Assembly: GCA_016926395.1 (NCBI GenBank) | Contig: JAFGOT010000032.1 | Location: 1 to 24,787 of the forward strand | Direction of reading: 5' to 3' | DNA length: 24,787 bases | Origin: Candidatus Woesearchaeota archaeon | GTDB taxonomy: Archaea; Nanobdellota; Nanobdellia; Woesearchaeales; SKGA01 | The notes under the pieces: model-generated | Told to the model about the DNA's origin: nothing | Seen by the model: the letters and a program-made list of their open reading frames with translations, nothing else | The model's database searches: none | Translations under genes and position numbers: made by a program | Part shown: positions 1 through 24,787 of the stretch, in pieces | Numbering within the stretch: the first letter of the stretch is position 1 | Layout of the letters: each line of letters begins with the position of its first letter

Positions 1-843
1 AAAGGGTTAGTTTTAAGTTCAATTAAAATTCCGACTAATCCTAAGCAAGGGAAGACTAAACTTATTAATCTAATAAAGACGATTATTCAATCTCTTCTTG
101 ATGGTTCAAAACATAAAATAACTGCTATTGGAATCTCCATGCCTGGTTTTTGTGATGAAAAAGGAAAACTTCTTGCAGTTGGAAATGTTCTTTCTTTTCT
201 TGAAGGATTTAACATAAAATTATTTTTAGAAAAAAACTTTCACATTCCTGTTATTGTGAAAAATGATTCTCTTTGTTTTACTATGGCTGAATCTGTTCTG
301 GGTGCTGGGAAAAATCATAAAGTTGTTTTAGGCGTTATTTGGGGAAGTGGTATAGGTGCCGGATTGGCTAAAAAAACTAAATCTGGTTGGGAAACCTATT
401 CTGGTGCTCTTGGTTCTTCAATTGAATTTGGTCATATCCCTGTTTATGATATGCGCTTTAGTAAATTCACTGAGTTAGAACTTTTGTGTGGTGGTGCTTT
501 CCTAACAAAACGATATTTGAAGCTTGGAGGAGAAATTAAACATCCAACTGTTGGTGATATTTATTTTTCTAGTGAAAAACTTGCTAAAGAGTTGATGATT
601 GAAACTTTTGAACATTTAGGCAGAGGTATTGCATCTGTTGTTAACATTCTAAATCCGGATGTTATTGTTTTAGGTGGTGGTGTTGCTAAACTTCCTGATG
701 TTGCTTACAAAAAATTATTTTCTCAAATAAAGAAGTACGCACTAAAATCACACACTAAGAGTTTATTTCTTAAACGTTATGAGGTAAGTGATGATGAAGG
801 TTTACTTGGAGCAGCTTATTTTGCATTCTCATTAGGAAAATGA
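1..843 (+). CDS. ROK family sugar kinase/regulator, 5'-truncated by the window edge
   Basis: Frame +1 is open from base 1 (KGLVLSSIKIPTNPKQGK...TAIGISMPGFCD), so the ORF-track start at 139 is internal. ROK motifs: IGISMPG, NDS, GVIWGSGIGAG, EFGH, LNPDVIVLGGGV, GLLGAA. Confidence 0.88.
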   Translation, partial: KGLVLSSIKIPTNPKQGKTKLINLIKTIIQSLLDGSKHKITAIGISMPGFCDEKGKLLAVGNVLSFLEGFNIKLFLEKNFHIPVIVKNDSLCFTMAESVLGAGKNHKVVLGVIWGSGIGAGLAKKTKSGWETYSGALGSSIEFGHIPVYDMRFSKFTELELLCGGAFLTKRYLKLGGEIKHPTVGDIYFSSEKLAKELMIETFEHLGRGIASVVNILNPDVIVLGGGVAKLPDVAYKKLFSQIKKYALKSHTKSLFLKRYEVSDDEGLLGAAYFAFSLGK

Positions 844-1490
844 ATACTTCCATCAAAGTAAATTCCTTTTCTAAGTTTAACAGGTCGCCAAGTATCTTCT
901 ACTAGCTTTGCATCAAGCCATGCTGCTAGTTCTTTTGCATTCCCTATTGTTGCAGAAAGACCTATTAATTGTAATTTTGGATTTTGATCTCTAAGTATTG
1001 TTATTAGTATTTCAAGTGTTGGACCTCTACTTAAATCATTAAGAAGATGTATTTCATCAATTACTACTACTTCAACTTTTTCAAGCCAAGGAGTGTGGTG
1101 TCTGATTAATGAATCAAACTTTTCGCTTGTTGTAATTATTATATCGTATGCTGCTAAATATCTGTCGTCACTATCCATATCGCCACTTGTTAGAGCTATT
1201 TTTAGTTTTGGATGTTTCTTACTAAACTCTTTATATTTCTCACTTGCAAGAGCCCTTAATGGAACGACATAAACTCCCATCGCTCCTGTGCGTTTACCTT
1301 CTTCTCCCAAAACTCGATTAATCAAACCTAATTCTCCAACCAATGTTTTTCCAGAAGCAGTAGGTGTACAAACCAGAAGATTTTTCCCTTTAAACAATCC
1401 TGCTTTTATTGATTTTTCTTGACTTGGTCGAAGTTCTTTAAATCCTAGCTTATCAAGATGGTTTTGGATGTGTTTAGGAATCATACTCAT
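816..1490 (-). CDS. Hel308/Ski2-like DEAD/DEAH-box helicase, N-terminal RecA-like domain only (224 aa)
   Basis: Q motif LRPSQ, Walker A TPTASGKT, Ia VPLRALASEK, Ib TSEKFDSL, motif II DEIH, motif III SAT, then WRPVKLRKG and a stop. Motifs IV-VI are absent. Confidence 0.85.
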   Translation of the reverse strand: MSMIPKHIQNHLDKLGFKELRPSQEKSIKAGLFKGKNLLVCTPTASGKTLVGELGLINRVLGEEGKRTGAMGVYVVPLRALASEKYKEFSKKHPKLKIALTSGDMDSDDRYLAAYDIIITTSEKFDSLIRHHTPWLEKVEVVVIDEIHLLNDLSRGPTLEILITILRDQNPKLQLIGLSATIGNAKELAAWLDAKLVEDTWRPVKLRKGIYFDGSIHFPNENAK

Positions 1491-1539
1491 TTAGAATAAG
1501 TTTAATCTTTTTATATTTATGTTTAAACTTCTAAAAATC

Positions 1540-2055
1540 TCAGACTTCAGAAATTATTCTATATATCTCCCTGAGATTTTTATCATCTGCAATAACAAAT
1601 TTAGTACTTTCAATTATGTGATTTAGTTCATCAATTAATTTTTCGAGTAATTCTTCACGTAACTCTTGTGCGCTTGGTCTTTGTTCGACTATTGTAATAA
1701 AGCCAGTCATTGATTCTCTTATTTTTTGTAATTGTGTTTTTTTATCTTCAAAATATTGTTGATCTTTTATTACAAAATATTGTGCATTCTTAACTTTAAT
1801 ACTGCTTATCATTTGAACATCGGACTCGAGGTGTTCAATTTTGCCTTTCATAGAAATCATTAGTTGGTAAAGTTCTTGTAATGTGTTTTCTCTGTTTGTT
1901 ATGCTTGTTTTATCTATTGTTGATTTGAATTCTTTTATTTTATTACTTATTTGGATTATTATTCCAGAAATTTCATTATCGATTGCTTCATCGTCGATTT
2001 CGATATAGTATAGTTTTTTCCTTTTCGAAGCAAACAGTCGTCCAAAAAAACCCAT
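1540..2055 (-). CDS. Hypothetical helical/coiled-coil protein (171 aa)
   Basis: Clean ORF with an SD-like AGGTGAG upstream on the minus strand and a TTTATAAA box near 2092-2099. No family recognised. Confidence 0.7.
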   Translation of the reverse strand: MGFFGRLFASKRKKLYYIEIDDEAIDNEISGIIIQISNKIKEFKSTIDKTSITNRENTLQELYQLMISMKGKIEHLESDVQMISSIKVKNAQYFVIKDQQYFEDKKTQLQKIRESMTGFITIVEQRPSAQELREELLEKLIDELNHIIESTKFVIADDKNLREIYRIISEV

Positions 2056-4392: not shown

Positions 4393-5946
4393 TTACCAGT
4401 TTAGAAGTTGATGTGTTTTTTTGTAAACAACGTATGTTATGCTAAGATCTTTGCTAGCTCCTTTTCCTGCTTCTTTAATTTTGTTGTCATCTCTTGGTTT
4501 TTCTTTTTCAGCTTCTTTTTTATCGCTCTTCTTCTTTTCACTTGAAGAATTTTCAAAGAATGATTTTCCTAGTTCTCCAAATCCTCGTCCGATATCAAGA
4601 AATGGTCCTAATAATCCAAATTTTGAATTTTTATCGTGAATTCTTTTTGCTTCATTAAAATCTGCATCGTCTTGTTCTTGTTGTTTTTTTTCTTCTGCTC
4701 TTTTTGCAATCATATTTTCTTCGCCAGCTTCTTCTAAATATCTTTCAATATCTTCTTTCATTGCTTCAAATGCTCCGCCGACATGTTCATCAATTGAACT
4801 TATTATGCTCATATCTTCTTCTTGTCGCATTTTTTTATATGTTTCAATATCTTTTTGATGCCAGCCATATGATCTTAATGTTACTGTTACTTTTCCGGTG
4901 TGCGCTACTGCTTGTTGTCCCCATTCAGGTTTAAATGTTAATGTTGGCTTTGTGTCATATCTAAAATTTGCAAGGATACATCTGTAATGTTTATCTTTAT
5001 TTTTTAGGTCTGTTGGTTTTTTTGCCAAGACTTCTATTTCTAATATTGTGTGATCAAATGCGTTAATTAAATCAGGACTGTCAAGTTGCTTTGAGTTTCT
5101 GTTCATTCGATGAGCTGTTTTAATATATGGTTTAACCCATGCCATGTTTAATTCTATTGCTTTCCAGTGTTGCCTTAAATATCTAACTTGGAATTTTCTT
5201 TTAGAAACTGTTTCTTGCATGATATTATTTCGCCAATTAATATATCCATACAATTTTCTTTTTAGAACTGTTCGAACATTTTTGTTAAACTCGCTTGTTT
5301 CACCTTTATCAACTGCATCGTCAATTCCGCCTAAATCATAGACGTGTGTGTTGAAAAACAAGTCAGGAAGAACTGCATACCCTATTCTTGTTGCAAGTCC
5401 ATATATTGAGTCAGGATTTTGTCCTCCTCCTTCAACGAATTGAACGTAATGTTGTTTTAGTGTTATGTCGGCACTCTTACTTTTGTCCCAATTTTTATAC
5501 AGTTCCATTCTTTCATCAAGAACTCGTAATTCTCTGACTAATGGAAATAATTCTTTTATCATCACACCAATACTTCTTAGGAATTGTACTGCTCTGTCTT
5601 GTTGTATTCCTTGCTTTTGTGCGACATTACCAAACATGGCGCTACTTTCGCTGCTGCTAAATATGTCATAAATTTTATCGACTTGAGGATATCCTAAATC
5701 GTATCGTAAAAATTGTAAAAACCAGTGATATGTTTCTTCTAAACTCGTGTCTGTTTTTTCAATAATTGCTTGTTTTCTATTTGTTGGTTCTGGATATGCG
5801 TCTTCGTCTGTTTCATCTGCTGTTTGGTACCATCCTACATTTTCTAAGTTTACAAACTCATCTTCTTCTATTTTCCAGCCTAACTCTTTCCCAAATTCTT
5901 TAACGTAGTCTGTTTTGTTTTCGTAGTGCTTCTTGCTTCCTAACAT
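4393..5946 (-). CDS. Hypothetical protein (517 aa), mostly helical with a charged C-terminal region
   Basis: Long ORF with a TTTATAAA-type box near 5973-5980 upstream. No family recognised with confidence. Confidence 0.8.
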   Translation of the reverse strand: MLGSKKHYENKTDYVKEFGKELGWKIEEDEFVNLENVGWYQTADETDEDAYPEPTNRKQAIIEKTDTSLEETYHWFLQFLRYDLGYPQVDKIYDIFSSSESSAMFGNVAQKQGIQQDRAVQFLRSIGVMIKELFPLVRELRVLDERMELYKNWDKSKSADITLKQHYVQFVEGGGQNPDSIYGLATRIGYAVLPDLFFNTHVYDLGGIDDAVDKGETSEFNKNVRTVLKRKLYGYINWRNNIMQETVSKRKFQVRYLRQHWKAIELNMAWVKPYIKTAHRMNRNSKQLDSPDLINAFDHTILEIEVLAKKPTDLKNKDKHYRCILANFRYDTKPTLTFKPEWGQQAVAHTGKVTVTLRSYGWHQKDIETYKKMRQEEDMSIISSIDEHVGGAFEAMKEDIERYLEEAGEENMIAKRAEEKKQQEQDDADFNEAKRIHDKNSKFGLLGPFLDIGRGFGELGKSFFENSSSEKKKSDKKEAEKEKPRDDNKIKEAGKGASKDLSITYVVYKKTHQLLNW

Positions 5947-11955: not shown

Positions 11956-12037
11956 GCTTTTTTTTATTTCTATTTCTTTCTTTAAATACTATCTGAAAAA
12001 GTTTATATAATTTGGATACTTCTCAATAGTGATAACA

Positions 12038-12940
12038 ATGACACCATTCAATCATATTGGGGAACAAGAATTTGAAACTACTTATCTTATGTTTGGACGT
12101 AATGATTCTGAGCTTGTTGGAATAAAGAATTGGTCTTCTGGTCAAAATCGGGTTCAAAGGTTTAAGCTTAACTCTGCTGGGAAATTAAAACCTATTGGCG
12201 AATCGATTCTAAATGAAGATGGCCGAACTGTTGATGGTCTTGTGATGGCTGGTAATCATCATTTCATTGTTACTGAACGTGGAAATGAACCTTATGGTGG
12301 TGTAATTCAATATTATGAATTTACTGATGGTGGAGTCAAAAAATCATATGGTCCTTATCCAACTAGAAATTTTATTGATAGTCCCTCAATGTCAAAGGGA
12401 TTTTTGATGGGAGATACTGTTGTTGATAATCATGGAACTTTTCTTTCAATATATAATTTGAATATGCAACCTCAAGTCATGTTTACTAAGAAAATGCCTT
12501 CTTTTAGAAAAGCAATTTGGTTAAACTCTGTTTCTGGTATTCTAACAATTGGTGATAGTTTAGGCGTTTATAATTGGAATCCGGAGGATTTTGATCTGAA
12601 TAAATTTGATTGTTCTTTATCTGAAACTATTAATAATCATTTAAATCAAGATAGAAAATTTAACCGTTCTATTGGTAGTGTTCTTCAAACTCCTGATAAT
12701 AAGTTGATTTTTGGTGTTCGAGCATACGATAATAGTCCTGGAGTTCATGGGGCAAAGTGTTCGTTAGTTTTCACAAAAGATTATGTTAGTTCTTTACTTG
12801 GTCCTGCAAAGGTTAGTGATGATTTAATTTCTGATGTTCAAGAATTTGATTCTGCTAATAACTTAATATTGAGCCCTTCCGGTAAATTATTGGTTTCTTA
12901 TGGTACTTCAGCTGGAATTAATATCTACAAAAGAGATTAA
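12038..12940 (+). CDS. Hypothetical protein, possible beta-propeller (about 300 aa)
   Basis: Repeated beta-strand blade-like segments, e.g. NNLILSPSGKLLVSYGTSAGINIY and SVLQTPDNKLIFG. TATA at 12002-12009 favours ATG 12038 over GTG 12029. Confidence 0.65.
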   Translation: MTPFNHIGEQEFETTYLMFGRNDSELVGIKNWSSGQNRVQRFKLNSAGKLKPIGESILNEDGRTVDGLVMAGNHHFIVTERGNEPYGGVIQYYEFTDGGVKKSYGPYPTRNFIDSPSMSKGFLMGDTVVDNHGTFLSIYNLNMQPQVMFTKKMPSFRKAIWLNSVSGILTIGDSLGVYNWNPEDFDLNKFDCSLSETINNHLNQDRKFNRSIGSVLQTPDNKLIFGVRAYDNSPGVHGAKCSLVFTKDYVSSLLGPAKVSDDLISDVQEFDSANNLILSPSGKLLVSYGTSAGINIYKRD

Positions 12941-13748: not shown

Positions 13749-14333
13749 ATGGTAACTAATTTTGAAGATTTAGTTAATCAAATAAAATCTTGTCGTGATT
13801 GTAAAGAGTTATTTGGTTTTAATCCAAATCCTGTTTTTAGCGGAAATAAAAATGCTAAGATTTTACAAATAAGTCAAGCACCCTCGCAAAATGTTCATAA
13901 CACAAATAAATGTTTTAATGATGCTAGTGGAAAAAAATTACGTAATGAATGGTATCAAATAACCGATGATGTTTTTTATGATGATGACAATTTTTATATT
14001 TCAGGTGTAGGTCACTGTTTTCCTGGTAAAGCTAATAATGGTGGTGATAAAAAACCTCCAAAACATTGTGCTGATAAGTGGTTACGCCAAGAAATTAAAT
14101 TTGTTGATAGTAAAATAATTGTTCTATTGGGTCGTGCTTCTGCTAACTATTTTTTTCCAAAAAAAGATTTTGTTGACTTAATTTTTAACAATCAAGAAAT
14201 TGATGGCAAATTAACTATTGTTCTTCCACACCCATCGCCATTAAATCAAAAATGGTTTAAAGACAATCCAAACTTTGAAAAGAAGCGGTTACAAGAGATT
14301 AGGAAAATTGTTCAATCTGTTTTATTTGATTAA
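13749..14333 (+). CDS. Uracil-DNA glycosylase superfamily protein (family-4-like, Fe-S cysteines)
   Basis: CRDC, QISQAPS, FNDASGKKLR, HCFPGK...PPKHC, IIVLLGRAS, LPHPSPLN. Confidence 0.88.
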   Translation: MVTNFEDLVNQIKSCRDCKELFGFNPNPVFSGNKNAKILQISQAPSQNVHNTNKCFNDASGKKLRNEWYQITDDVFYDDDNFYISGVGHCFPGKANNGGDKKPPKHCADKWLRQEIKFVDSKIIVLLGRASANYFFPKKDFVDLIFNNQEIDGKLTIVLPHPSPLNQKWFKDNPNFEKKRLQEIRKIVQSVLFD

Positions 14334-15091
14334 TCTTTTTTATCAAGTTGTTTTTCTAATCCTGATGATTTAGTTTGACTTGAATTTGAGGTGTTGCTTA
14401 AACTTCCTGTTTTATAGCTTTGATTAATTGGTTTATAATCTGTAGAAATTTTTGGTTGCATGTCCATTGGTCGAAAAAATTCTTGTGATTGAAATTGTTT
14501 TGAAACGTCTGTTTGATAATTTTGTCTGATTTGTTTTTCTTGTTGGCTAATAACGTCTTTAAGTGCCCTATATGTTTCATCAACATTTTCTTTTAGAAAT
14601 GGATTAAGGTCGTATTGCGCGCTTGCACTAACAGAATCTTTAATTGCAAAAAAGTCTGCTGCATCTTGTTTTGACCAATTACTTTTGTATTGTAATTCTC
14701 TAAGTCTATTTGAACTAGCTCCGCTTGCCGCAGTGGTAAGAACGTCTTCATTAATTCTATAACTGGGTTCGCTACCTTTGTAACTTTTGTCTATTTCTTC
14801 ACCAAATATTTCTCTGGCATCTTTTTTTGCGGTTTGTGTTTTATCAAGCATTTCTTCTAGAACTTCTGTTTGTTTATCTATTTCTTCTTGCATGTCAATG
14901 ATTTTTTCTTTCGCTTCATGTTCCATATCTGATTGTGCTTCTTCAATTAACCTTTGCATAGTTTTAATTTGTGTAAGTAGAATTTTGAGATTTTTTTCGT
15001 GTTCAGCCATTTTGCTAAGTAATTCTCGCTTAGCTTCTTCAAGCATTCCGATTCTGATGCCCGCATCGGTTTTCTTTATTTCTTCTGACAT
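14330..15091 (-). CDS. Hypothetical protein with N-terminal coiled coil and low-complexity tail (253 aa)
   Basis: E/K/Q-rich heptads in the first about 100 aa and a Ser/Thr-rich end. Overlaps the convergent UDG gene by 4 bp. Confidence 0.75.
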   Translation of the reverse strand: MSEEIKKTDAGIRIGMLEEAKRELLSKMAEHEKNLKILLTQIKTMQRLIEEAQSDMEHEAKEKIIDMQEEIDKQTEVLEEMLDKTQTAKKDAREIFGEEIDKSYKGSEPSYRINEDVLTTAASGASSNRLRELQYKSNWSKQDAADFFAIKDSVSASAQYDLNPFLKENVDETYRALKDVISQQEKQIRQNYQTDVSKQFQSQEFFRPMDMQPKISTDYKPINQSYKTGSLSNTSNSSQTKSSGLEKQLDKKD

Positions 15092-18725: not shown

Positions 18726-18765
18726 CCTTCATTTCTATTTTTATACTTGAGAGAGGTTTATTTGG

Positions 18766-19221
18766 ATGATTTTCACAGGTCGGGCTCAGGCCGCAGTAGA
18801 ATATTTGTTTATTGTTGCCCTTGCTTTGATGCTCATTGTGCCTGGAAGCATTGTCTTTTATCGGTTTTCAGCCGATTCGCAGGCAGTGGTGGAAGTATCT
18901 AAAATAACTTCTGCTGGTAATGAGATTTTAGGAGTTGCTGAAGAACTTTACTCCTTAGGCGCTGCTTGGGAGACTGTTGATGTTAATTTTCCTAATTCTG
19001 CTACTGGTATGTGGGTTTATAATGCGACGGTGAGTGAGTTGGCTTTGACTTTTGACATGGGCGGTCCTTCTGAAGTGGTCTTTTTCACACACGTTTCTAT
19101 GGGTAATAGTTCCACAAATGATTGCACGAATGGATGTTTTATTCCAATAACTCCTGGTGATAATCGTATTCGAATAGAATCAAATGAAGAAGGTCAGGTG
19201 GTGTTAAGATTAAAAGACTAA
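18766..19221 (+). CDS. Archaeal class III signal peptide (type IV pilin-like) protein, 151 aa
   Basis: G-R-A/Q-A-A-V-E-Y matches the [KR][GA]/Qxxx[DE] prepilin peptidase pattern and is followed by a hydrophobic helix. Small beta-rich C-terminus with one CxxxC pair. Confidence 0.85.
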   Translation: MIFTGRAQAAVEYLFIVALALMLIVPGSIVFYRFSADSQAVVEVSKITSAGNEILGVAEELYSLGAAWETVDVNFPNSATGMWVYNATVSELALTFDMGGPSEVVFFTHVSMGNSSTNDCTNGCFIPITPGDNRIRIESNEEGQVVLRLKD

Positions 19222-22200
19222 AAAAAGCACAGAGTGCTATAGAATTTGTCTTATTAGTTTCTTTTATGCTGTTAATATTCTTCTCTTTTTTCTTATCATT
19301 TCAAAACAAGATAGTGGAAATTGCCAGGGCTCAAGATTTGCAGTATCTACAAGAAGCAAATGATGTTATTATTTCTGAAGTTGCTCTTGCTCAAAAAATG
19401 TATGCTGATTATGAGAGAACATTTATTCTTCCTTCCATTGCTGACAAACCTTATCAAATGAATTTAACCGATCTCAACGAGATTACTTCTTATTATAATG
19501 GTCTTGAGTACGTTAATTTTTTGTCTGTTAATATTTCTGGTGATGTATTTGCCGGTAATATTGAAAGTGGTAAAAACACTATTTATAGAACTGATGGTAT
19601 TGTTTACCTTCCTGACGGGACTGTTTATCGAAACGATGATTATGCAGGTTTTTATGCTAATGTTAATCCTGAGACTTGTTATGAATATAATTATTCTGGA
19701 ACTTGCGCTGACCTTTACAAAATCAATTCTCAATTTAAACAGTTTTGTATAAACTTTTTTGACTTAGTTTGTCCTGTTTGTCCTGATGGTGTTGTCGACC
19801 CTCCTTATGAAGAGTGCGATGATAACGCTGCAGGTAATCATGACTGCTGGCCAGGTGGTGTGTTAAACATTTCCGATCCTTATTGTCATCCTGCTGTTCC
19901 TGATCCTAATTCTGCAGATTCAACTTTTGTTTGGACTTGTAACACTGACTGTCAAGGTGAATCAGTGGAGCGTGGTTGTAATGATGATGGCGGTTGGTGT
20001 GATCAACAAGATGTAAATGTATGTCCTGGAAATGGAGATGCTAACCCTAACAATAATGATTGTGATGGTTTACTAAATATGTCTTTATCAAATAATGAAT
20101 TTAATTTTTCATTAGATTTTAATGCTAATCTTTATGCACAAGATTGTGGTACTAACTGTAATTATCAAATAGTTGATACTCAAGTTTTTAATTTAGCAAC
20201 CTCTTCTTGGGAATCTATTGGTCCGATTTGGCCTTGGAATTTAGATGCTTCTATTGATGTAACTAATACCTTAAAAATTACTGGTTTAAGAGATCAATTT
20301 CAAGACACTTGTGCTCTTGCTTATAGGGATGCTAATGTCACGATAAAAGTGAGTGATGATCCTCATCCAATAACTCGAACAGAGATTTTTAATTTTTATT
20401 TAACTGACTGTCCTGGATGTGGTGATGGGGAAGTTCAAGTTTTTGATACTTACTCTGAAACTTGTGATTATGGCGCTCCTCTTTCAGATCCTGCTGTTTG
20501 TATTCCTGCTTATGGTCCTGCAACTTTTGGAGGCGTTAAAGCTAGTTGTCAATATTGTTCTCCTACTTGTCAATGGGCTACTAATGTAACAACTAAGTTT
20601 TGTGGTAATGATATTGTTGAATCCTTGTATGGTGAAGAGTGTGATAATACTTCTTTGCCTGAGCCTTCTCCTTGGTCACTTGGTGGAACAACTTTCTGTA
20701 ATGTTTATTGTAAAAATGAAACTACCTCTCATTGTGGTGATGGGATAAAAGATATTGGTCATGAAACTTGTGATCTTGGCGGAACTAACAACAATGATAC
20801 TCCTTGTATTCCTTCTTGGGGGACTTCTTGTTCTTATTGTAATTCTGTATGTCAAGAAATAACAATTGATGGTTCTAGTTGCGGTGACACTTATTGCGAT
20901 TTGGGTTTTGAAACTTGTTATTCTTGTTCAAGTGATTGTAATAATCCTGCTTGTGCATCTGTTGCAAATTTAAATTTTTTTTCTTCTAATCAAAATGAAG
21001 GTATTCTTCTAAGTTATGTTAGGGGAGAGGGTTTAGATCATATTGATTTAGATTGGCGTATTAATAATGGAGCAACAAGTATTAACACTATTAATGCTCC
21101 TTTTAGTGAGTTTATTTCTACTGCAGGTTACGGTAATGTTGTTGATCAATCAACTTTCAATAACGATGGTGATTTAGGCGGTGGTTCTACTTCTAATATT
21201 CCAACTTTAGAGAATAGTAATTGTTTATCTGGTCTTGGTTCTTGTTATTCTTTTGGAAATGGAGATTTGATTAAGTTCAATCCTCAAGAAGATGTTCGTT
21301 CTGATTTTTCATTTTCTTTTTGGGTAAGACCGACTTCTTCATTTTCAAGTCTTCCTGTTGTTGATTCTAGTCCTGATTCTGCTAATTTATTTGTTCTCCT
21401 TCCGGAAAATCAAGGAGCTATTAGTCTTGGAACAGGTGTTGCTGTAGGAACAAATGGTGCTTATGTCTTTGCTAATTTTGCAGGAAATTATTTCGCAGTA
21501 GCAGGAGGTCCCAAATCTTTTTCAGATTGGACTTTTATTACTGTAGTTTTTGAAAATAATAGGCCTTATATTTACGCTAATGGTGTTCCTTTAGGGACGA
21601 GTTTATCTAATTCACTAACTACTTTTCCTCCAAGAATTATAGGTGGTTCTTCATTCAATGGTTTGGTTGATGAGTTTAGGGTTTTTGACAGGGTTTTATC
21701 TGATTCTGATATTGTTCACTTATACAATCATTATACTTCTAGAGGAAGTTCATCTCTTAAAGCTCGTGTTCAAAAAGTTGTTCCTGGTGAAACTTGGAAA
21801 GTTAAATTAACTTCTTATGATGTTAATGGTGTTGCGATTCCTGTTCTTTATTCCAATGCTCTTTATATTCCTGGTTGTGGTGATGGTAATATTGATTTAG
21901 GAGAGGATTGTGATGATGGTTTTCCAAATCCTGCTTCTGAAGTTTGTCAAACAAATTCAAATAATAATAATTGTAATTTTAATAATCCTAATGAAAACTT
22001 TTATGATGTGATTAGAACAGATTATTCATATTGTAATACTGGTTGTGATGCTGGAACTTATTCTGCTAATTATTACTGTGGTGATGGTATTAAGCAAACT
22101 TCAAATGGTGAAACCTGCGATTATGGATCTTATAATGGAGGCATTTATTGTGATGGTTTTGGAACTACTCCCTCTTATGGTGTTGATTGCTATACTTGTT

Positions 22201-24787
22201 CAAGCACTTGTCAACTTAGTGCAAACCCTGTAAATCCTTCTTGTGGTGATGGAACTATTGATTGGTCGCAAGGAGAACTTTGTGATACGGGTAATCCTGC
22301 AGATGGTTGTTGCAATAGTAACGAGGTAGCTAAAATAAGTAGTAATTACTACCCTGGCTGTGATGCTGTTTCTTATAATGTTATTTGTGATAGTTCTATT
22401 TCTGGAACTAGCTTTACTCAAGATGGTCTATGTGTTTGTGATTCTTCAACTTGTTCATCTAATTCCGATAGTGATAATTGTTATACTTCTGGGTCTGGTA
22501 AATTTGTTTGTAAACATTCAAATAAATATTATAGTGGCAATTCTGGTGTTTGTTCGTTTGGAGATCAATGTGATGCTACTTTAACTGATGGGACGTTTAA
22601 TTATGAATATTCTAGTTTAAGACACTATTTTGTTTCTCTAAGAGTTGATTGTGATAGCACTGGAAATGGAAATACTTGTATTGATTATTCTACTAATCCT
22701 TCTATTTATGCTTGTTGCACTGATGATACTACTGATACTACTGTTGAAAAATGTGTTACGCCTGCGGGTGTTTGCGTGAATGGATTTAGTAACAGTCGTG
22801 AAATAATTTCTCTTGGTGGTGAACAGGCTTATTGTTATCAAGGTACTTGGTACGATTTAGATAGTTATAAAACTAGTTGTGAAATTGCACCTGGTGGTCA
22901 TGATTGGTTAAAGGCTGGACGAAATAGTTTAGGCGAGTATTCTGATAGAACTTCCTTTGAATGTTGTGGCGATGATAGTGGTGAGTATGTAATTCCTTTA
23001 TCTTGTGATGCTGATTTAACTTGTGGTTCTGCTGATTCTGTTTGTTGTTCTTCTTCCCGTGATTGTTACTTAAACTCAAACACTTGTTATACTTCTGGCT
23101 TTAGTGCTGTTGATGTTAATGGTGATGGTGATGATGATTACTGTTTATCTGGAACTTGGTATGATTGTGAAACCGATGCTGACTGCCCAACTAATATTGT
23201 GTGTGATTCAAACCATGATTGTGTTTTAGCTCCTGACGGTCATACTTGTACTTCTGATTCTACTTGTGCAAGTGGTTATTGCGATAATGATGGTGTTGGT
23301 GCTGCTGATGATGGTGTTTGTTACACGCCTATAGCAGGTAATAATAATTGTAATGGTGGAAATTGTTTTGACAATCAAGATGGTTATTGTGAGGCAGATA
23401 CCGGTCATGCAGATGCTTTCGCTGACGAAAGAGATTCTTATTGGGTAAATAGTAATACCTCTTCTTCAAATTATTATGGTTGTCCAGCTCATAGTTCTTG
23501 TATTGTCGCATACAGTCCTGCATGTCAAGCTTACGATGGTGATTACAATGATCCGATTTGTGGTTTAGTAGGTGGAACTTGGACTTCTATGAATGGTGGT
23601 GTTGATAGCACTGATTGTACTTCTGGTGTCACTTGTGGAACTGCAGGAGGGTATTATTGTTGTGGTGATGATTCTAATGAATTTATTGATTCCTTTGGTC
23701 GTTATACTACTGGAAATGCAGGTATTGCTATTAATTTAGGTTCTGTTAGTGCTTGTTGTGCTGCTGATAATGCTTGTATTGATAAAGATGGAAATTGTGT
23801 TACTTATTATACTGGTGGATATCTTGCTTCAACTCAATCTAATGATTGGATAGCTGCGTGTGGTGGTGGTTCTACCTCAAGCACAATGGATGATTGGATA
23901 GATTGTGATTATAGTGAATTACGTTGTGGATTTTGTGCAGGTACTGGCGAGACTGCTGTTTGGATTTCTGAAGGTGAATCTTCGACATCTTTACCTGGAG
24001 AATATTCTGATGGCGCAACTGAATGTTGTGGTGATGATGCTAATGAATATTATCGTCATTATGATGTTTATAATACGCAATATGGATTAACTACTGGTGC
24101 TGATAATACTGCTGATGATGCTTGTTGTAATAGCGCTACTGATTGTGTTTATAATGGAAGATGTTATTCGCCTGGTTATTATGATTTGATTGGCAGTGAT
24201 GGTGTTGTCGATATGAAGTGTCATACTGATGGTCGTTGGTTAGATGTTGATTATCATAGTTCTTATTGTGACTCTGCTGTTGGTACTGGTCATTGGAATA
24301 TTGGCGGTAGTGCTACTGTAGAAGATAGCTACTATACAACCAATGGAGGAACTTCAAGTTATTGTTATATTGGTTCTTCTGGAAATCCAAGTCAGCAATG
24401 TTGTTGTGGTGATGATCCTGGTGAGCTCTATAAAAATAGAGTTTGTTCGTTTAGATGTGTTACTGATTTAACAGATGTTTCTTGTTGCACTGAACTTGAT
24501 GATTGCGTTTATAATGGTGTTTGTTACCCTGCAGGAACTGATGATGTTGTTATAGGTGCGAAGTGTATGTTAGGTTCTTGGAGAAAATCTTTAATATTCC
24601 ACGATATCTGCGGCGATGGTATTTGTTCACTTGCAGAAGCAGATTCAGGTTCTTGTCCTGAAGATTGTGATCTTATAGGTCCTTTTTGTGGTGATGGTTC
24701 TTGTAATAATGGCGAGACTTGTTCTTCTTGTTCTTCTGATTGTGGTGCTTGTCTTTATTGTGGTGATGGAATTTGTAATAATGGCGA
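19209..24787 (+). CDS. Giant cysteine-rich surface protein (at least 1859 aa, 3'-truncated): pilin-like N-terminus, CGDG cysteine-rich repeats, LamG/ConA-like domain, CCGDDxxE repeats
   Basis: Hand translation of frame +3 shows no stop from 19188 to the window end. N-terminus KRLKKA/QSAIEFVLLVSFMLLIFFSFF; repeats such as CGDGNIDLGEDCDDG; LamG motifs FSFSFWVRP, WTFITVV..YANG and FNGLVDEFRVFDRVLSDSDIVHLY. The ATT start is inferred. Confidence 0.92.
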   Translation, partial: MKRLKKAQSAIEFVLLVSFMLLIFFSFFLSFQNKIVEIARAQDLQYLQEANDVIISEVALAQKMYADYERTFILPSIADKPYQMNLTDLNEITSYYNGLEYVNFLSVNISGDVFAGNIESGKNTIYRTDGIVYLPDGTVYRNDDYAGFYANVNPETCYEYNYSGTCADLYKINSQFKQFCINFFDLVCPVCPDGVVDPPYEECDDNAAGNHDCWPGGVLNISDPYCHPAVPDPNSADSTFVWTCNTDCQGESVERGCNDDGGWCDQQDVNVCPGNGDANPNNNDCDGLLNMSLSNNEFNFSLDFNANLYAQDCGTNCNYQIVDTQVFNLATSSWESIGPIWPWNLDASIDVTNTLKITGLRDQFQDTCALAYRDANVTIKVSDDPHPITRTEIFNFYLTDCPGCGDGEVQVFDTYSETCDYGAPLSDPAVCIPAYGPATFGGVKASCQYCSPTCQWATNVTTKFCGNDIVESLYGEECDNTSLPEPSPWSLGGTTFCNVYCKNETTSHCGDGIKDIGHETCDLGGTNNNDTPCIPSWGTSCSYCNSVCQEITIDGSSCGDTYCDLGFETCYSCSSDCNNPACASVANLNFFSSNQNEGILLSYVRGEGLDHIDLDWRINNGATSINTINAPFSEFISTAGYGNVVDQSTFNNDGDLGGGSTSNIPTLENSNCLSGLGSCYSFGNGDLIKFNPQEDVRSDFSFSFWVRPTSSFSSLPVVDSSPDSANLFVLLPENQGAISLGTGVAVGTNGAYVFANFAGNYFAVAGGPKSFSDWTFITVVFENNRPYIYANGVPLGTSLSNSLTTFPPRIIGGSSFNGLVDEFRVFDRVLSDSDIVHLYNHYTSRGSSSLKARVQKVVPGETWKVKLTSYDVNGVAIPVLYSNALYIPGCGDGNIDLGEDCDDGFPNPASEVCQTNSNNNNCNFNNPNENFYDVIRTDYSYCNTGCDAGTYSANYYCGDGIKQTSNGETCDYGSYNGGIYCDGFGTTPSYGVDCYTCSSTCQLSANPVNPSCGDGTIDWSQGELCDTGNPADGCCNSNEVAKISSNYYPGCDAVSYNVICDSSISGTSFTQDGLCVCDSSTCSSNSDSDNCYTSGSGKFVCKHSNKYYSGNSGVCSFGDQCDATLTDGTFNYEYSSLRHYFVSLRVDCDSTGNGNTCIDYSTNPSIYACCTDDTTDTTVEKCVTPAGVCVNGFSNSREIISLGGEQAYCYQGTWYDLDSYKTSCEIAPGGHDWLKAGRNSLGEYSDRTSFECCGDDSGEYVIPLSCDADLTCGSADSVCCSSSRDCYLNSNTCYTSGFSAVDVNGDGDDDYCLSGTWYDCETDADCPTNIVCDSNHDCVLAPDGHTCTSDSTCASGYCDNDGVGAADDGVCYTPIAGNNNCNGGNCFDNQDGYCEADTGHADAFADERDSYWVNSNTSSSNYYGCPAHSSCIVAYSPACQAYDGDYNDPICGLVGGTWTSMNGGVDSTDCTSGVTCGTAGGYYCCGDDSNEFIDSFGRYTTGNAGIAINLGSVSACCAADNACIDKDGNCVTYYTGGYLASTQSNDWIAACGGGSTSSTMDDWIDCDYSELRCGFCAGTGETAVWISEGESSTSLPGEYSDGATECCGDDANEYYRHYDVYNTQYGLTTGADNTADDACCNSATDCVYNGRCYSPGYYDLIGSDGVVDMKCHTDGRWLDVDYHSSYCDSAVGTGHWNIGGSATVEDSYYTTNGGTSSYCYIGSSGNPSQQCCCGDDPGELYKNRVCSFRCVTDLTDVSCCTELDDCVYNGVCYPAGTDDVVIGAKCMLGSWRKSLIFHDICGDGICSLAEADSGSCPEDCDLIGPFCGDGSCNNGETCSSCSSDCGACLYCGDGICNNG
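24687..24787 (+). repeat. Tandem 72-bp coding repeat (CGDGxCNNGE) at the window edge
   Basis: TGTGGTGATGG-TTC/AAT-TTGTAATAATGGCGA at 24687 and 24759. Confidence 0.8.

What the first reader, a model, noticed from the sequence alone, without database searches (positions are those of the whole stretch)
19209..24787. Giant pilin-anchored, disulfide-rich modular adhesin missed by the ORF track
The ORF is absent from the track, apparently because it runs off the window. Architecture from hand translation: pilin-like domain (about 19209-19620); at least 8 CGDG-x5-9-E-x-CD or related repeats of the Myxococcus cysteine-rich/DUF4215 type (19779, 20418, 20601, 20733, 20880, 21876, 22077, 22242); a LamG/ConA-like domain (about 21240-21735); a Ca-binding-like DVNGDGDDD (23112); an EGF-like CxxDxDC unit (23166); CCGDDxxE repeats; and terminal CGDGxC..ETCxxCxxDC repeats. 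Fusing more than 1700 aa of lectin-like and Cys-rich modules onto a type IV pilin-like head suggests a very large filament-incorporated adhesin. It would be a strong candidate host-recognition apparatus for a DPANN episymbiont (inference).
Basis: partly seen in the sequence, partly recalled or inferred. Interest (0 to 1): 0.85.

Follow-up and report, generated by a model that had tools for sequence, protein, structure and literature searches.

The report
Giant modular pilin of a DPANN archaeon
A tiny Woesearchaeota-type archaeon has a complete pilus-subunit domain fused to more than 1,670 residues of lectin-like and cysteine-rich modules, so it is probably a pilus-displayed adhesin and a testable candidate for how such cells grip a partner or a surface.

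Summary

- **Pilin module:** residues 1-188 form a complete type IV pilin-like module. It has a class III signal (KKA|QSAIEF, Glu at +5), a hydrophobic helix and a beta-sheet head (AlphaFold pLDDT 90).
- **Family:** the module belongs to a large Woesearchaeota-type family, found in 220 of 300 genomes sampled from the order. Most members are stand-alone proteins of 130-200 aa. They sit just downstream of a second small pilin gene, usually overlapping it.
- **A second pair:** a paralogous pair in this genome lies in a pilus operon with an assembly ATPase and two platform genes.
- **The fusion:** three same-genus genomes carry a 189-190 aa stand-alone orthologue in the same synteny. One independent relative (P0005, 57% identity) shares the pilin-plus-cysteine-rich architecture. 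Other family members carry beta-helix, CBM96, LamG, cadherin-like or DUF2341 tails.
- **Start codon:** there is no ATG, GTG or TTG. ATT at 19209 lies where relatives have ATG.
- **Missing end:** the C-terminus is not assembled.

The best reading is an archaeal modular minor pilin, analogous to Streptococcus sanguinis PilC, that displays adhesive modules. Processing, filament incorporation and the binding target are all untested. I class it as a new variant of a known kind, of moderate interest.

The parts
18766..19221 (+). Small pilin-like gene (P0002, 151 aa). It has a class III-type N-terminus (GRA|QAAVEY) and is the conserved upstream partner of the giant gene.
   Evidence: Translation. Pfam Class_IIIsignal at E = 0.025, below threshold. 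Homologues lie directly upstream of a family-A1 pilin gene in 29 of 32 loci examined.
19195..19202 (+). Shine-Dalgarno-like AGGTGGTG, 6 nt upstream of the ATT start.
   Evidence: Read from the sequence. Its function is inferred.
19209..19211 (+). Inferred ATT start codon. It overlaps the upstream gene by 13 nt.
   Evidence: There is no ATG, GTG or TTG between the stop at 19185 and 19266. 'IKR..AQSA' lines up with 'MKRAQSA' of a congener. No base differences in the two DNA runs. The same-genus genome G204 and two other relatives also lack a canonical start.
19209..19772 (+). Complete pilin module (residues 1-188). It has a 7-residue basic leader, a predicted cleavage site KKA|Q, Glu at +5, a hydrophobic helix (residues 8-31), a beta-sheet head and a four-cysteine helical cap.
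   Evidence: Exhaustive HMMER search: 481 representatives at E <= 1e-3, mostly 130-200 aa. Stand-alone relatives end at the cysteine aligned with residue 188. AlphaFold pLDDT 90.6 and 90.4. The top structural matches are type IV pilins, Z up to 5.7.
19773..21254 (+). Cysteine-rich region 1 (residues 189-682). It holds five CGDG-x-E-x-CD-type repeats (191, 404, 465, 509, 558) with beta-rich spacers.
   Evidence: Motif scan against shuffles and the module listing. No Pfam or NCBIfam match.
21255..21713 (+). LamG / concanavalin A-like lectin domain (residues 683-835).
   Evidence: Pfam PF13385 at E = 6e-15, 56.1 bits against a cut-off of 27.6.
21876..22298 (+). Three more CGDG-type repeats (residues 890, 957, 1012).
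   Evidence: TIGR02232 scores below threshold here (E = 0.021, 14.6 bits).
22599..24608 (+). Four CCGDDxxE modules (residues 1252, 1484, 1606, 1732) of roughly 120-230 aa each. The region includes a DxNxDGDxD calcium-loop-like motif at 23112-23138.
   Evidence: The same modules occur in P0005 and in P0154-P0156, P0161 (P0155 and P0161 carry ordinary signal peptides; P0154 and P0156 lack one, and P0154 at least sits on a 3.1 kb contig), at 32-41% identity.
24609..24785 (+). Terminal CGDGxC..E..C..DC mini-repeats. The contig and both Logan contigs break here.
   Evidence: depth 43.8 against 19.9. The motif is widespread in metagenomic surface proteins, and in some it precedes a C-terminal membrane anchor.

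Best explanation
The ORF encodes an archaeal modular type IV pilin. A complete minor-pilin module (residues 1-188) is fused at its C-terminus to at least 1,671 residues of extracellular binding modules: a LamG/ConA-like lectin domain, CGDG-type repeats and CCGDD-type disulfide-rich modules.

**Proposed mechanism (inferred).**
- Translation starts at ATT 19209, coupled to the upstream small pilin gene.
- The genome's prepilin peptidase cuts after Ala7.
- The hydrophobic helix docks the protein, probably with its small partner pilin, into a filament built in trans by one of the two Epd-like ('system 1') ATPase/platform loci on contig C19.
- The bulky tail would fit only at the tip, or sparsely along the filament. 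There it would bind glycans or proteins on a partner cell or a surface.

**Shown here:** the gene structure, the homology, the operon context, the presence of the machinery and the predicted fold.

**Not shown:** processing, assembly into a filament, and any ligand.
For: **The N-terminus is a pilin.**
- The class III motif K-A|Q-S with Glu at +5 and a 24-residue hydrophobic stretch is read. It is the only strongly hydrophobic segment in 1,859 residues.
- Members of the family match Pfam DUF7266 (30 of 62), Class_IIIsignal (15 of 62) and TadE (8 of 62).
- The AlphaFold model gives a 59-residue helix plus a beta-sheet, pLDDT 90.6.
- For the head-only model, about 20 of the 50 best matches among 48,161 chains are type IV pilins or minor pseudopilins. 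They include PilA4 (Z 5.7), EpsI/GspI (5.0-5.1) and S. sanguinis PilB (5.0).

**The machinery is present.** The genome has a prepilin peptidase on C9, plus two ATPase loci on C19, each with two platform genes.

**Minor-pilin context.**
- A paralogous pair (C19:57393-58253) lies inside a pilus operon, ahead of three more pilin-like genes, the ATPase and the platform genes.
- The pair 'small pilin then family-A1 pilin' is adjacent in 29 of 32 loci. The two genes overlap by 4 nt in 15 of 24 pairs.

**The fusion is real.**
- The frame is uninterrupted.
- Two independent Logan assemblies are identical across the junction.
- P0005 (57% identity in the pilin module) has the same pilin-plus-cysteine-rich-plus-CCGDD layout.

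**The tails are adhesion-type modules.**
- LamG here.
- Relatives carry Beta_helix, four CBM96 domains, two LamG plus cadherin-like, or LamG plus DUF2341.
- At least 7 gains or losses are forced by well-supported branches.

**Precedent.** Bacterial modular pilins include S. sanguinis PilC, whose ConA-like lectin module is stabilised by the small pilin PilA (PMC8179133, PMC9934059). In archaea, class III signal proteins with binding domains are known, and Epd-like pilins are reported in Nanobdellati (PMC13705601).
Against: - There is no canonical start codon, so expression depends on ATT initiation or on reinitiation.
- The only RNA evidence is two short, low-depth contigs from a metatranscriptome, which may contain DNA.
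- The C-terminus is missing. Related CGDGxC-bearing proteins (L031, L035, L045) and the CCGDD protein P0155 end in a membrane anchor. Such an anchor here would argue against a tip location.
- The gene is not in a pilus operon.
- Structural similarity to solved pilins is weak (Z below 6), and Foldseek found nothing.
- The protein itself gives no significant Pfam class III hit (TadE at E = 2.1).
- No dedicated disulfide oxidase was found: no VKOR, and only a sub-threshold thioredoxin-like hit, in a genome that is 82.5% complete.
Confidence: 0.6

Rival explanations
1. It is a cell-surface adhesin that only borrows a pilin-type N-terminus. The class III signal and helix would serve for export and membrane or pseudopilus anchoring, as proposed for the archaeal bindosome's binding proteins. 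The giant tail would then project from the cell envelope and not from a long pilus.
For: Archaeal class III signal proteins with non-pilin binding domains are widespread (PMC13705601). The gene lies away from the pilus operons. Related cysteine-rich proteins are Sec-exported and anchored at the C-terminus. A tail of more than 1,670 residues is far larger than in any characterised modular pilin (an 860-residue protein is called the most extreme case in PMC8179133).
Against: A whole 188-residue pilin fold is retained, not only a signal and helix. Its orthologues and paralogues are pilin-sized genes inside pilus operons, paired with a partner pilin.
Confidence: 0.25
2. It is a decaying or silent gene. 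A recent lineage-specific fusion would have lost its ATG (now ATT) and would not be translated efficiently.
For: There is no canonical start. The fusion is not found in three congeners. Synteny downstream is broken: the conserved neighbours lie on C25, beside a type I restriction-modification cluster.
Against: The open frame of 1,866 codons is intact. The cysteine count is even and the repeat motifs are conserved. ATT sits exactly where relatives have ATG, behind a Shine-Dalgarno-like site. Another congener also lacks a canonical start in an otherwise intact gene. Identical RNA-library contigs cover 19182-19392 and 22848-22998.
Confidence: 0.08
3. It is an assembly chimera that joins a pilin gene to an unrelated cysteine-rich gene.
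For: This is a metagenome-assembled genome. The contig ends in repeats, and the congeners lack the tail.
Against: Single Logan contigs from two runs span 18762-24730 with no differences, although the runs may be the source samples. P0005 from another data set shows the same junction architecture. The frame is preserved exactly at the domain boundary.
Confidence: 0.03

Closest known systems
Streptococcus sanguinis modular minor pilins PilC (with its partner PilA) and PilB (PMC9934059, PMC8179133)
   Same: An N-terminal pilin module has functional modules grafted at its C-terminus. PilC carries a ConA-like lectin module and is stabilised by a small partner pilin, and a tip location is proposed. 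Here there is also a LamG/ConA-like module and a conserved small partner pilin gene. PilB is among the structural matches to the head model (Z 5.0).
   Different: This protein is archaeal, with an archaeal-type cleavage motif and no sequence homology to PilB or PilC. It is more than 3.5 times longer than PilC. Most of the tail consists of disulfide-rich repeats that have no Pfam model. Binding and tip location are untested.
Epd-like ('system 1') archaeal type IV pili and their minor pilins and adhesin-like proteins (Methanococcus maripaludis; PMC4858521, PMC13705601)
   Same: The genome has ATPase loci with two platform genes each and a run of several pilin-like genes, as described for system 1, which is reported in Nanobdellati/DPANN. 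Large DUF2341 or adhesin-like proteins accompany those loci, and the relative P0117 carries DUF2341 plus LamG on this same pilin module.
   Different: Here the adhesive modules are covalently fused to a pilin module and the gene is encoded away from the machinery. In the papers I read I found no description of this Woesearchaeota-type pilin family or of its fused forms.
Tip-located minor pilins with extra domains in bacteria: CofB/TcpB and GspK with GspI/GspJ
   Same: These are minor pilins that carry bulky extra domains and act with small partner pilins at the filament tip. EpsI, GspI and XcpV are among the best structural matches (Z 4.7-5.1).
   Different: The structural scores are weak and there is no sequence relationship. 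The extra domains are of different kinds and far smaller.
Archaeal class III signal-peptide binding proteins (the bindosome of Sulfolobales and relatives; PMC13705601)
   Same: A class III signal and hydrophobic helix precede a large functional extracellular domain, and the genes are encoded away from the assembly machinery.
   Different: Those are solute-binding proteins linked to ABC transporters and have only the signal and helix. This protein keeps a complete pilin head and carries lectin and cysteine-rich adhesin-type modules.
Cysteine-rich acidic repeat of Myxococcus (TIGR02232) / DUF4215 (PF13948)
   Same: The CGDG-x(5-9)-E-x-CD core motif looks alike. There is a sub-threshold TIGR02232 hit (E = 0.021). 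The relative P0043 has a sub-threshold DUF4215 hit (E = 7e-4).
   Different: No hit reaches a curated cut-off, so membership is not established.

Membership tests
Type IV pilin-like (class III signal peptide) proteins of archaea | A short basic leader ending in [KR][GA], followed by [ALIFQMVED][ILMVTAS] (the FlaFind-type cleavage motif, recalled from Szabo et al. 2007 as cited in PMC13705601) | tested here: met
   Residues 1-9 read I-K-R-L-K-K-A|Q-S. Q8 is conserved in at least 90% of 62 family members.
Type IV pilin-like (class III signal peptide) proteins of archaea | A hydrophobic stretch of about 20 residues directly after the cleavage site, with Glu at +5 | tested here: met
   QSAIE, then a hydrophobic run to residue 31. 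This is the highest hydropathy window in the protein, at residues 10-32. E12 is conserved in at least 90% of the family.
Type IV pilin-like (class III signal peptide) proteins of archaea | Pilin fold: a long N-terminal helix packed on an antiparallel beta-sheet | tested here: met
   The AlphaFold model (pLDDT 90.6) has helix 5-63 and six strands. The head-only model has pLDDT 90.4. Many of the best VIA matches are solved pilins, but Z is only 4.7-5.7. The predicted architecture therefore fits, while structural homology is only weakly supported.
Type IV pilin-like (class III signal peptide) proteins of archaea | A significant match to curated class III, pilin or TadE profiles | tested here: inconclusive
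   The protein itself gives only TadE at E = 2.1. Its family members match DUF7266 (30 of 62, best 3.2e-7), Class_IIIsignal (15 of 62, best 7.3e-5) and TadE (8 of 62).
Type IV pilin-like (class III signal peptide) proteins of archaea | Cognate prepilin peptidase, assembly ATPase and platform protein in the genome | tested here: met
   PF01478 at C9:1175-1534. PF00437 at C19:64461 and C19:81808. PF00482 four times on C19.
Type IV pilin-like (class III signal peptide) proteins of archaea | Cleavage by the peptidase and polymerisation into a filament | not testable with these tools
   This needs biochemistry or imaging.
Modular pilins (sensu Raynaud et al. 2021, PMC8179133) | A complete N-terminal pilin module followed by one or more extra functional modules not specific to pilus biology | tested here: met
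   Stand-alone homologues end at the cysteine aligned with residue 188. The tail contains Pfam LamG above its cut-off.
Modular pilins (sensu Raynaud et al. 2021, PMC8179133) | The extra module has a direct role in a pilus-mediated function such as adhesion | not testable with these tools
   This is inferred only from the kinds of domain present.
Laminin_G_3 / concanavalin A-like lectin superfamily (PF13385) | A profile match above the gathering threshold | tested here: met
   56.1 bits against 27.6, covering residues 683-835 and profile positions 2-150 of 151.
Myxococcus cysteine-rich acidic repeat (TIGR02232) / DUF4215 (PF13948) | A profile match above the curated cut-off | tested here: not met
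   TIGR02232 scores 14.6 bits against 20.8. PF13948 gives no hit even at E <= 10. HMMER's filters may hide very weak matches.
Archaeal T4F 'system 1' (Epd-like) locus component | Encoded in a locus with the ATPase and two platform genes | tested here: not met
   The giant gene lies on C38 next to the cysteinyl-tRNA synthetase gene. Only its paralogue at C19:57843-58253 is inside such a locus. It could still be assembled in trans.

The most novel reading that the evidence does not exclude
The conserved, translationally coupled pair 'small pilin plus family-A1 pilin' of Woesearchaeota-type DPANN archaea may be a pilus-tip priming complex. Lineages would repeatedly graft different binding modules onto it: lectins, CBMs, cadherin-like domains, beta-helices and disulfide-rich repeats. 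The grafted tail would then be the determinant of which host cell or surface each episymbiont recognises. On this reading the giant protein is the host-specificity factor of its lineage.
Probability: 0.3. Interest if true: 0.8.

Novelty: new variant of a known kind. Interest (0 to 1): 0.55.

Why it matters
How DPANN archaea find and hold their partners is largely unknown, and almost none are cultivated.

This finding gives a defined and widespread pilin family: it was found in 220 of 300 genomes sampled from the order. Its members are sometimes extended by adhesive modules of quite different kinds. That provides concrete candidates for attachment factors that can be expressed, localised and tested for ligands.

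It also extends the 'modular pilin' principle, established in bacteria, to archaea and to a much larger size. This protein has at least 1,859 residues, and relatives reach 2,322-2,338.

The cysteine-rich CCGDD and CGDG modules have no profile in Pfam or NCBIfam.

Tried and rejected
- **Missing C-terminus.** No other contig end of the genome carries a cysteine-rich open frame. The conserved downstream neighbours lie mid-contig on C25. The metagenome scan returned only proteins that share the terminal CGDGxC mini-repeat, neither this gene nor close relatives. A search among proteins of 3,255-5,000 residues found nothing (weak evidence).
- **Giants with the same pilin module.** A word-based search among proteins of 1,022-3,254 aa found only the window's own protein. 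The exhaustive search did find fused relatives.
- **Internal and paralogue similarity.** BLAST of the protein against itself, and against the three other giant cysteine-rich ORFs of the genome, gave nothing at the thresholds used. Those other giants have ordinary signal peptides.
- **Structure searches.** Foldseek against the PDB gave no match for either model. The VIA search with the full-length module was swamped by coiled coils.
- **Profile against PDB sequences.** Nothing useful.
- **ESM Atlas.** No usable hit for residues 1180-1800.
- **Disulfide oxidases.** No VKOR, and only a sub-threshold Thioredoxin_4 hit on C26. The genome is 82.5% complete, so absence is not shown.
- **Not used.** My sequon count looked too low against a reading by eye, so I make no glycosylation claim.

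Full report
**Setting.** The window is the whole of contig C38 of a genome of about 1.02 Mb and 32% G+C, in 40 contigs and 82.5% complete. Its genes are archaeal: ribosomal proteins S6e, L15e and L21e, Rpb4, PAC2 and DUF655. Named relatives of the pilin module, and one relative of the tail, are Candidatus Woesearchaeota MAGs.

**The ORF.** The frame is open from the stop at 19185-19187 to 24785, which is 1,866 codons. The first ATG, GTG or TTG is at 19266, inside the hydrophobic helix, so an ORF track restricted to those starts would lose the signal peptide.

The reading that makes biological sense begins at ATT 19209, six bases after an AGGTGGTG Shine-Dalgarno-like site, and overlaps the upstream gene by 13 nt. 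The encoded IKR..AQSA lines up with MKRAQSA of a same-genus orthologue. Another congener (G204) and two more distant relatives also lack a canonical start in this gene. Non-AUG initiation, or reinitiation after the coupled upstream gene, therefore seems to be a recurrent feature and not an error.

Logan contigs of two DNA runs from one study cover 18762-24730 with no differences or gaps. Both stop at 24730 in the terminal repeats, where depth doubles. These runs may be the source samples. One metatranscriptome of that study holds two short identical contigs, 19182-19392 and 22848-22998, which is only a weak hint of transcription.

**The N-terminal module is a pilin.** Residues 1-31 show a basic leader, the motif K-A|Q-S, Glu at +5 and a hydrophobic stretch.
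- An exhaustive HMMER search with residues 1-194 found 481 cluster representatives at E <= 1e-3, and 82 at E <= 1e-10. Most are 130-200 aa and align from their first residues.
- The closest stand-alone members end exactly at the fourth conserved cysteine, which aligns with residue 188. That marks the fusion point at 19772/19773.
- The query itself does not reach any curated pilin profile. Of 62 family members, 30 match DUF7266, 15 match Class_IIIsignal and 8 match TadE.
- AlphaFold with this alignment gives pLDDT 90.6: a helix over residues 5-63, six strands and a short helical cap.
- With the helix shortened (pLDDT 90.4), a Foldseek-independent search of 48,161 chains puts Thermus PilA4 first (Z 5.7, rmsd 2.7 Å, 67 residues aligned). 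About 20 pilins or minor pseudopilins are among the top 50, including EpsI, GspI, XcpV, PilV, PilX, FimU and S. sanguinis PilB. These scores are low in absolute terms, so I count them as consistent and not decisive.

**Machinery and context.** The genome has a prepilin peptidase (C9). It also has two loci on C19 that each hold an ATPase and two platform genes, the layout described for archaeal 'system 1' Epd-like pili (PMC13705601).

Upstream of one ATPase lies a run of pilin-like genes. Its first two members (C19:57393-57812 and 57843-58253) are paralogues of the window's pair, P0002 and the giant's pilin module. Across the order the family occurs in 220 of 300 sampled genomes. This tally includes five unpublished genomes (G131, G182, G205, G207, G244), and no specific claim rests on them.

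In 29 of 32 loci retrieved with P0002, a family-A1 gene follows directly on the same strand. In 15 of 24 pairs the start overlaps the upstream stop by 4 nt. This is the signature of a tightly co-expressed pair of minor pilins.

**The fusion is lineage-specific but real.** Three same-genus genomes keep the synteny 'cysteinyl-tRNA synthetase, small pilin, family-A1 pilin'. Their A1 pilin is 189-190 aa and is followed by unrelated housekeeping genes. In this genome those neighbours sit on C25, beside a type I restriction-modification cluster.

An independent protein, P0005 (670 aa, possibly partial), is 57% identical in the pilin module. It continues into the same kind of cysteine-rich and CCGDD sequence.

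Other family members carry quite different tails: Beta_helix, four CBM96 domains, two LamG plus cadherin-like domains (2,322 aa), or LamG plus DUF2341. In a FastTree of 148 pilin modules, the 24 proteins of at least 300 aa need 19 changes of state, of which at least 7 are forced by well-supported branches. The query's nearest neighbour is P0005, and the next nearest are stand-alone pilins. The tree has few columns and is poorly resolved.

**The tail.** Only LamG (residues 683-835) matches a curated profile. The CGDG-type repeats resemble the Myxococcus cysteine-rich repeat only below threshold. The four CCGDD modules and the DxNxDGDxD loop recur at 32-41% identity in other large proteins. P0155 and P0161 of these have ordinary signal peptides, and P0155 also has a C-terminal anchor.

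The tail has 138 cysteines, is strongly acidic (226 Asp+Glu against 55 Lys+Arg) and has no further hydrophobic segment. The terminal CGDGxC mini-repeat is common in metagenomic surface proteins and sometimes precedes a membrane anchor. This is why the missing C-terminus matters.

**Interpretation.** The protein works like a modular pilin as defined in bacteria (PMC8179133). The closest functional parallel is S. sanguinis PilC, a ConA-like lectin pilin stabilised by the small pilin PilA at the pilus tip (PMC9934059). I place about 0.6 on pilus display with an adhesive role and 0.25 on an envelope-anchored adhesin that only uses the pilin-type N-terminus. The remainder goes to a silent gene or an artefact.

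I found no description of this Woesearchaeota-type pilin family, or of its fused forms, in the papers searched. A text search of this kind cannot prove absence.

Noticed in passing
window 19185-19232; L017:2190-2275 (G204): The second gene of the coupled pilin pair lacks any ATG, GTG or TTG start here (ATT) and in a same-genus genome (ATA region). Other congeners have ATG overlapping the upstream stop (ATGA). This suggests non-canonical initiation, or termination-reinitiation, in this gene pair.
   Followed up: partly
G000 C19:54785-67454: A full pilus operon. It has a probable major pilin (179 aa, KGQAAMEF), then five pilin-like genes including one of 893 aa, a 381-aa gene, the ATPase and two platform genes. 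A second ATPase with two platform genes lies at C19:81259-84625.
   Followed up: partly
G000 C4:10657-16734, C4:21237-25514, C33:4030-9792: Three more giant cysteine-rich ORFs (2,026, 1,426 and 1,921 aa) have ordinary signal peptides. They show no BLAST similarity to the giant pilin at E <= 1e-5.
   Followed up: partly
G000 C25:13130-24302: In congeners a small ORF, a glycogen phosphorylase-like gene and enolase follow the pilin pair. Here that block lies on another contig, next to a RadC-like gene and a type I restriction-modification cluster. This suggests an insertion or rearrangement at the site where the pilin acquired its tail.
   Followed up: no
window 21282-21737 (residues 692-843): A weak NCBIfam match of the LamG region to the 'TafC family fimbrial protein' (E = 0.0023, 17 bits against a cut-off of 410). 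It probably reflects a shared LamG-like domain.
   Followed up: no
window 816-2055 (- strand): A 224-aa ORF holds only the DEAD-box helicase N-terminal domain. It is followed by a 171-aa ORF with no Pfam match, so this may be a split or frameshifted helicase gene.
   Followed up: no
window 4393-5946 (-), 12029-12940 (+), 14330-15091 (-): Three sizeable ORFs (517, 303 and 253 aa) have no significant Pfam family.
   Followed up: no
L031, L035, L045 (metagenome loci): The mini-repeat CGDGxC..E..C..DC forms tandem arrays just before a C-terminal transmembrane helix and basic tail in several unrelated metagenomic proteins. It looks like a widespread stalk or spacer module with no Pfam or NCBIfam match in the searches run here.
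   Followed up: partly
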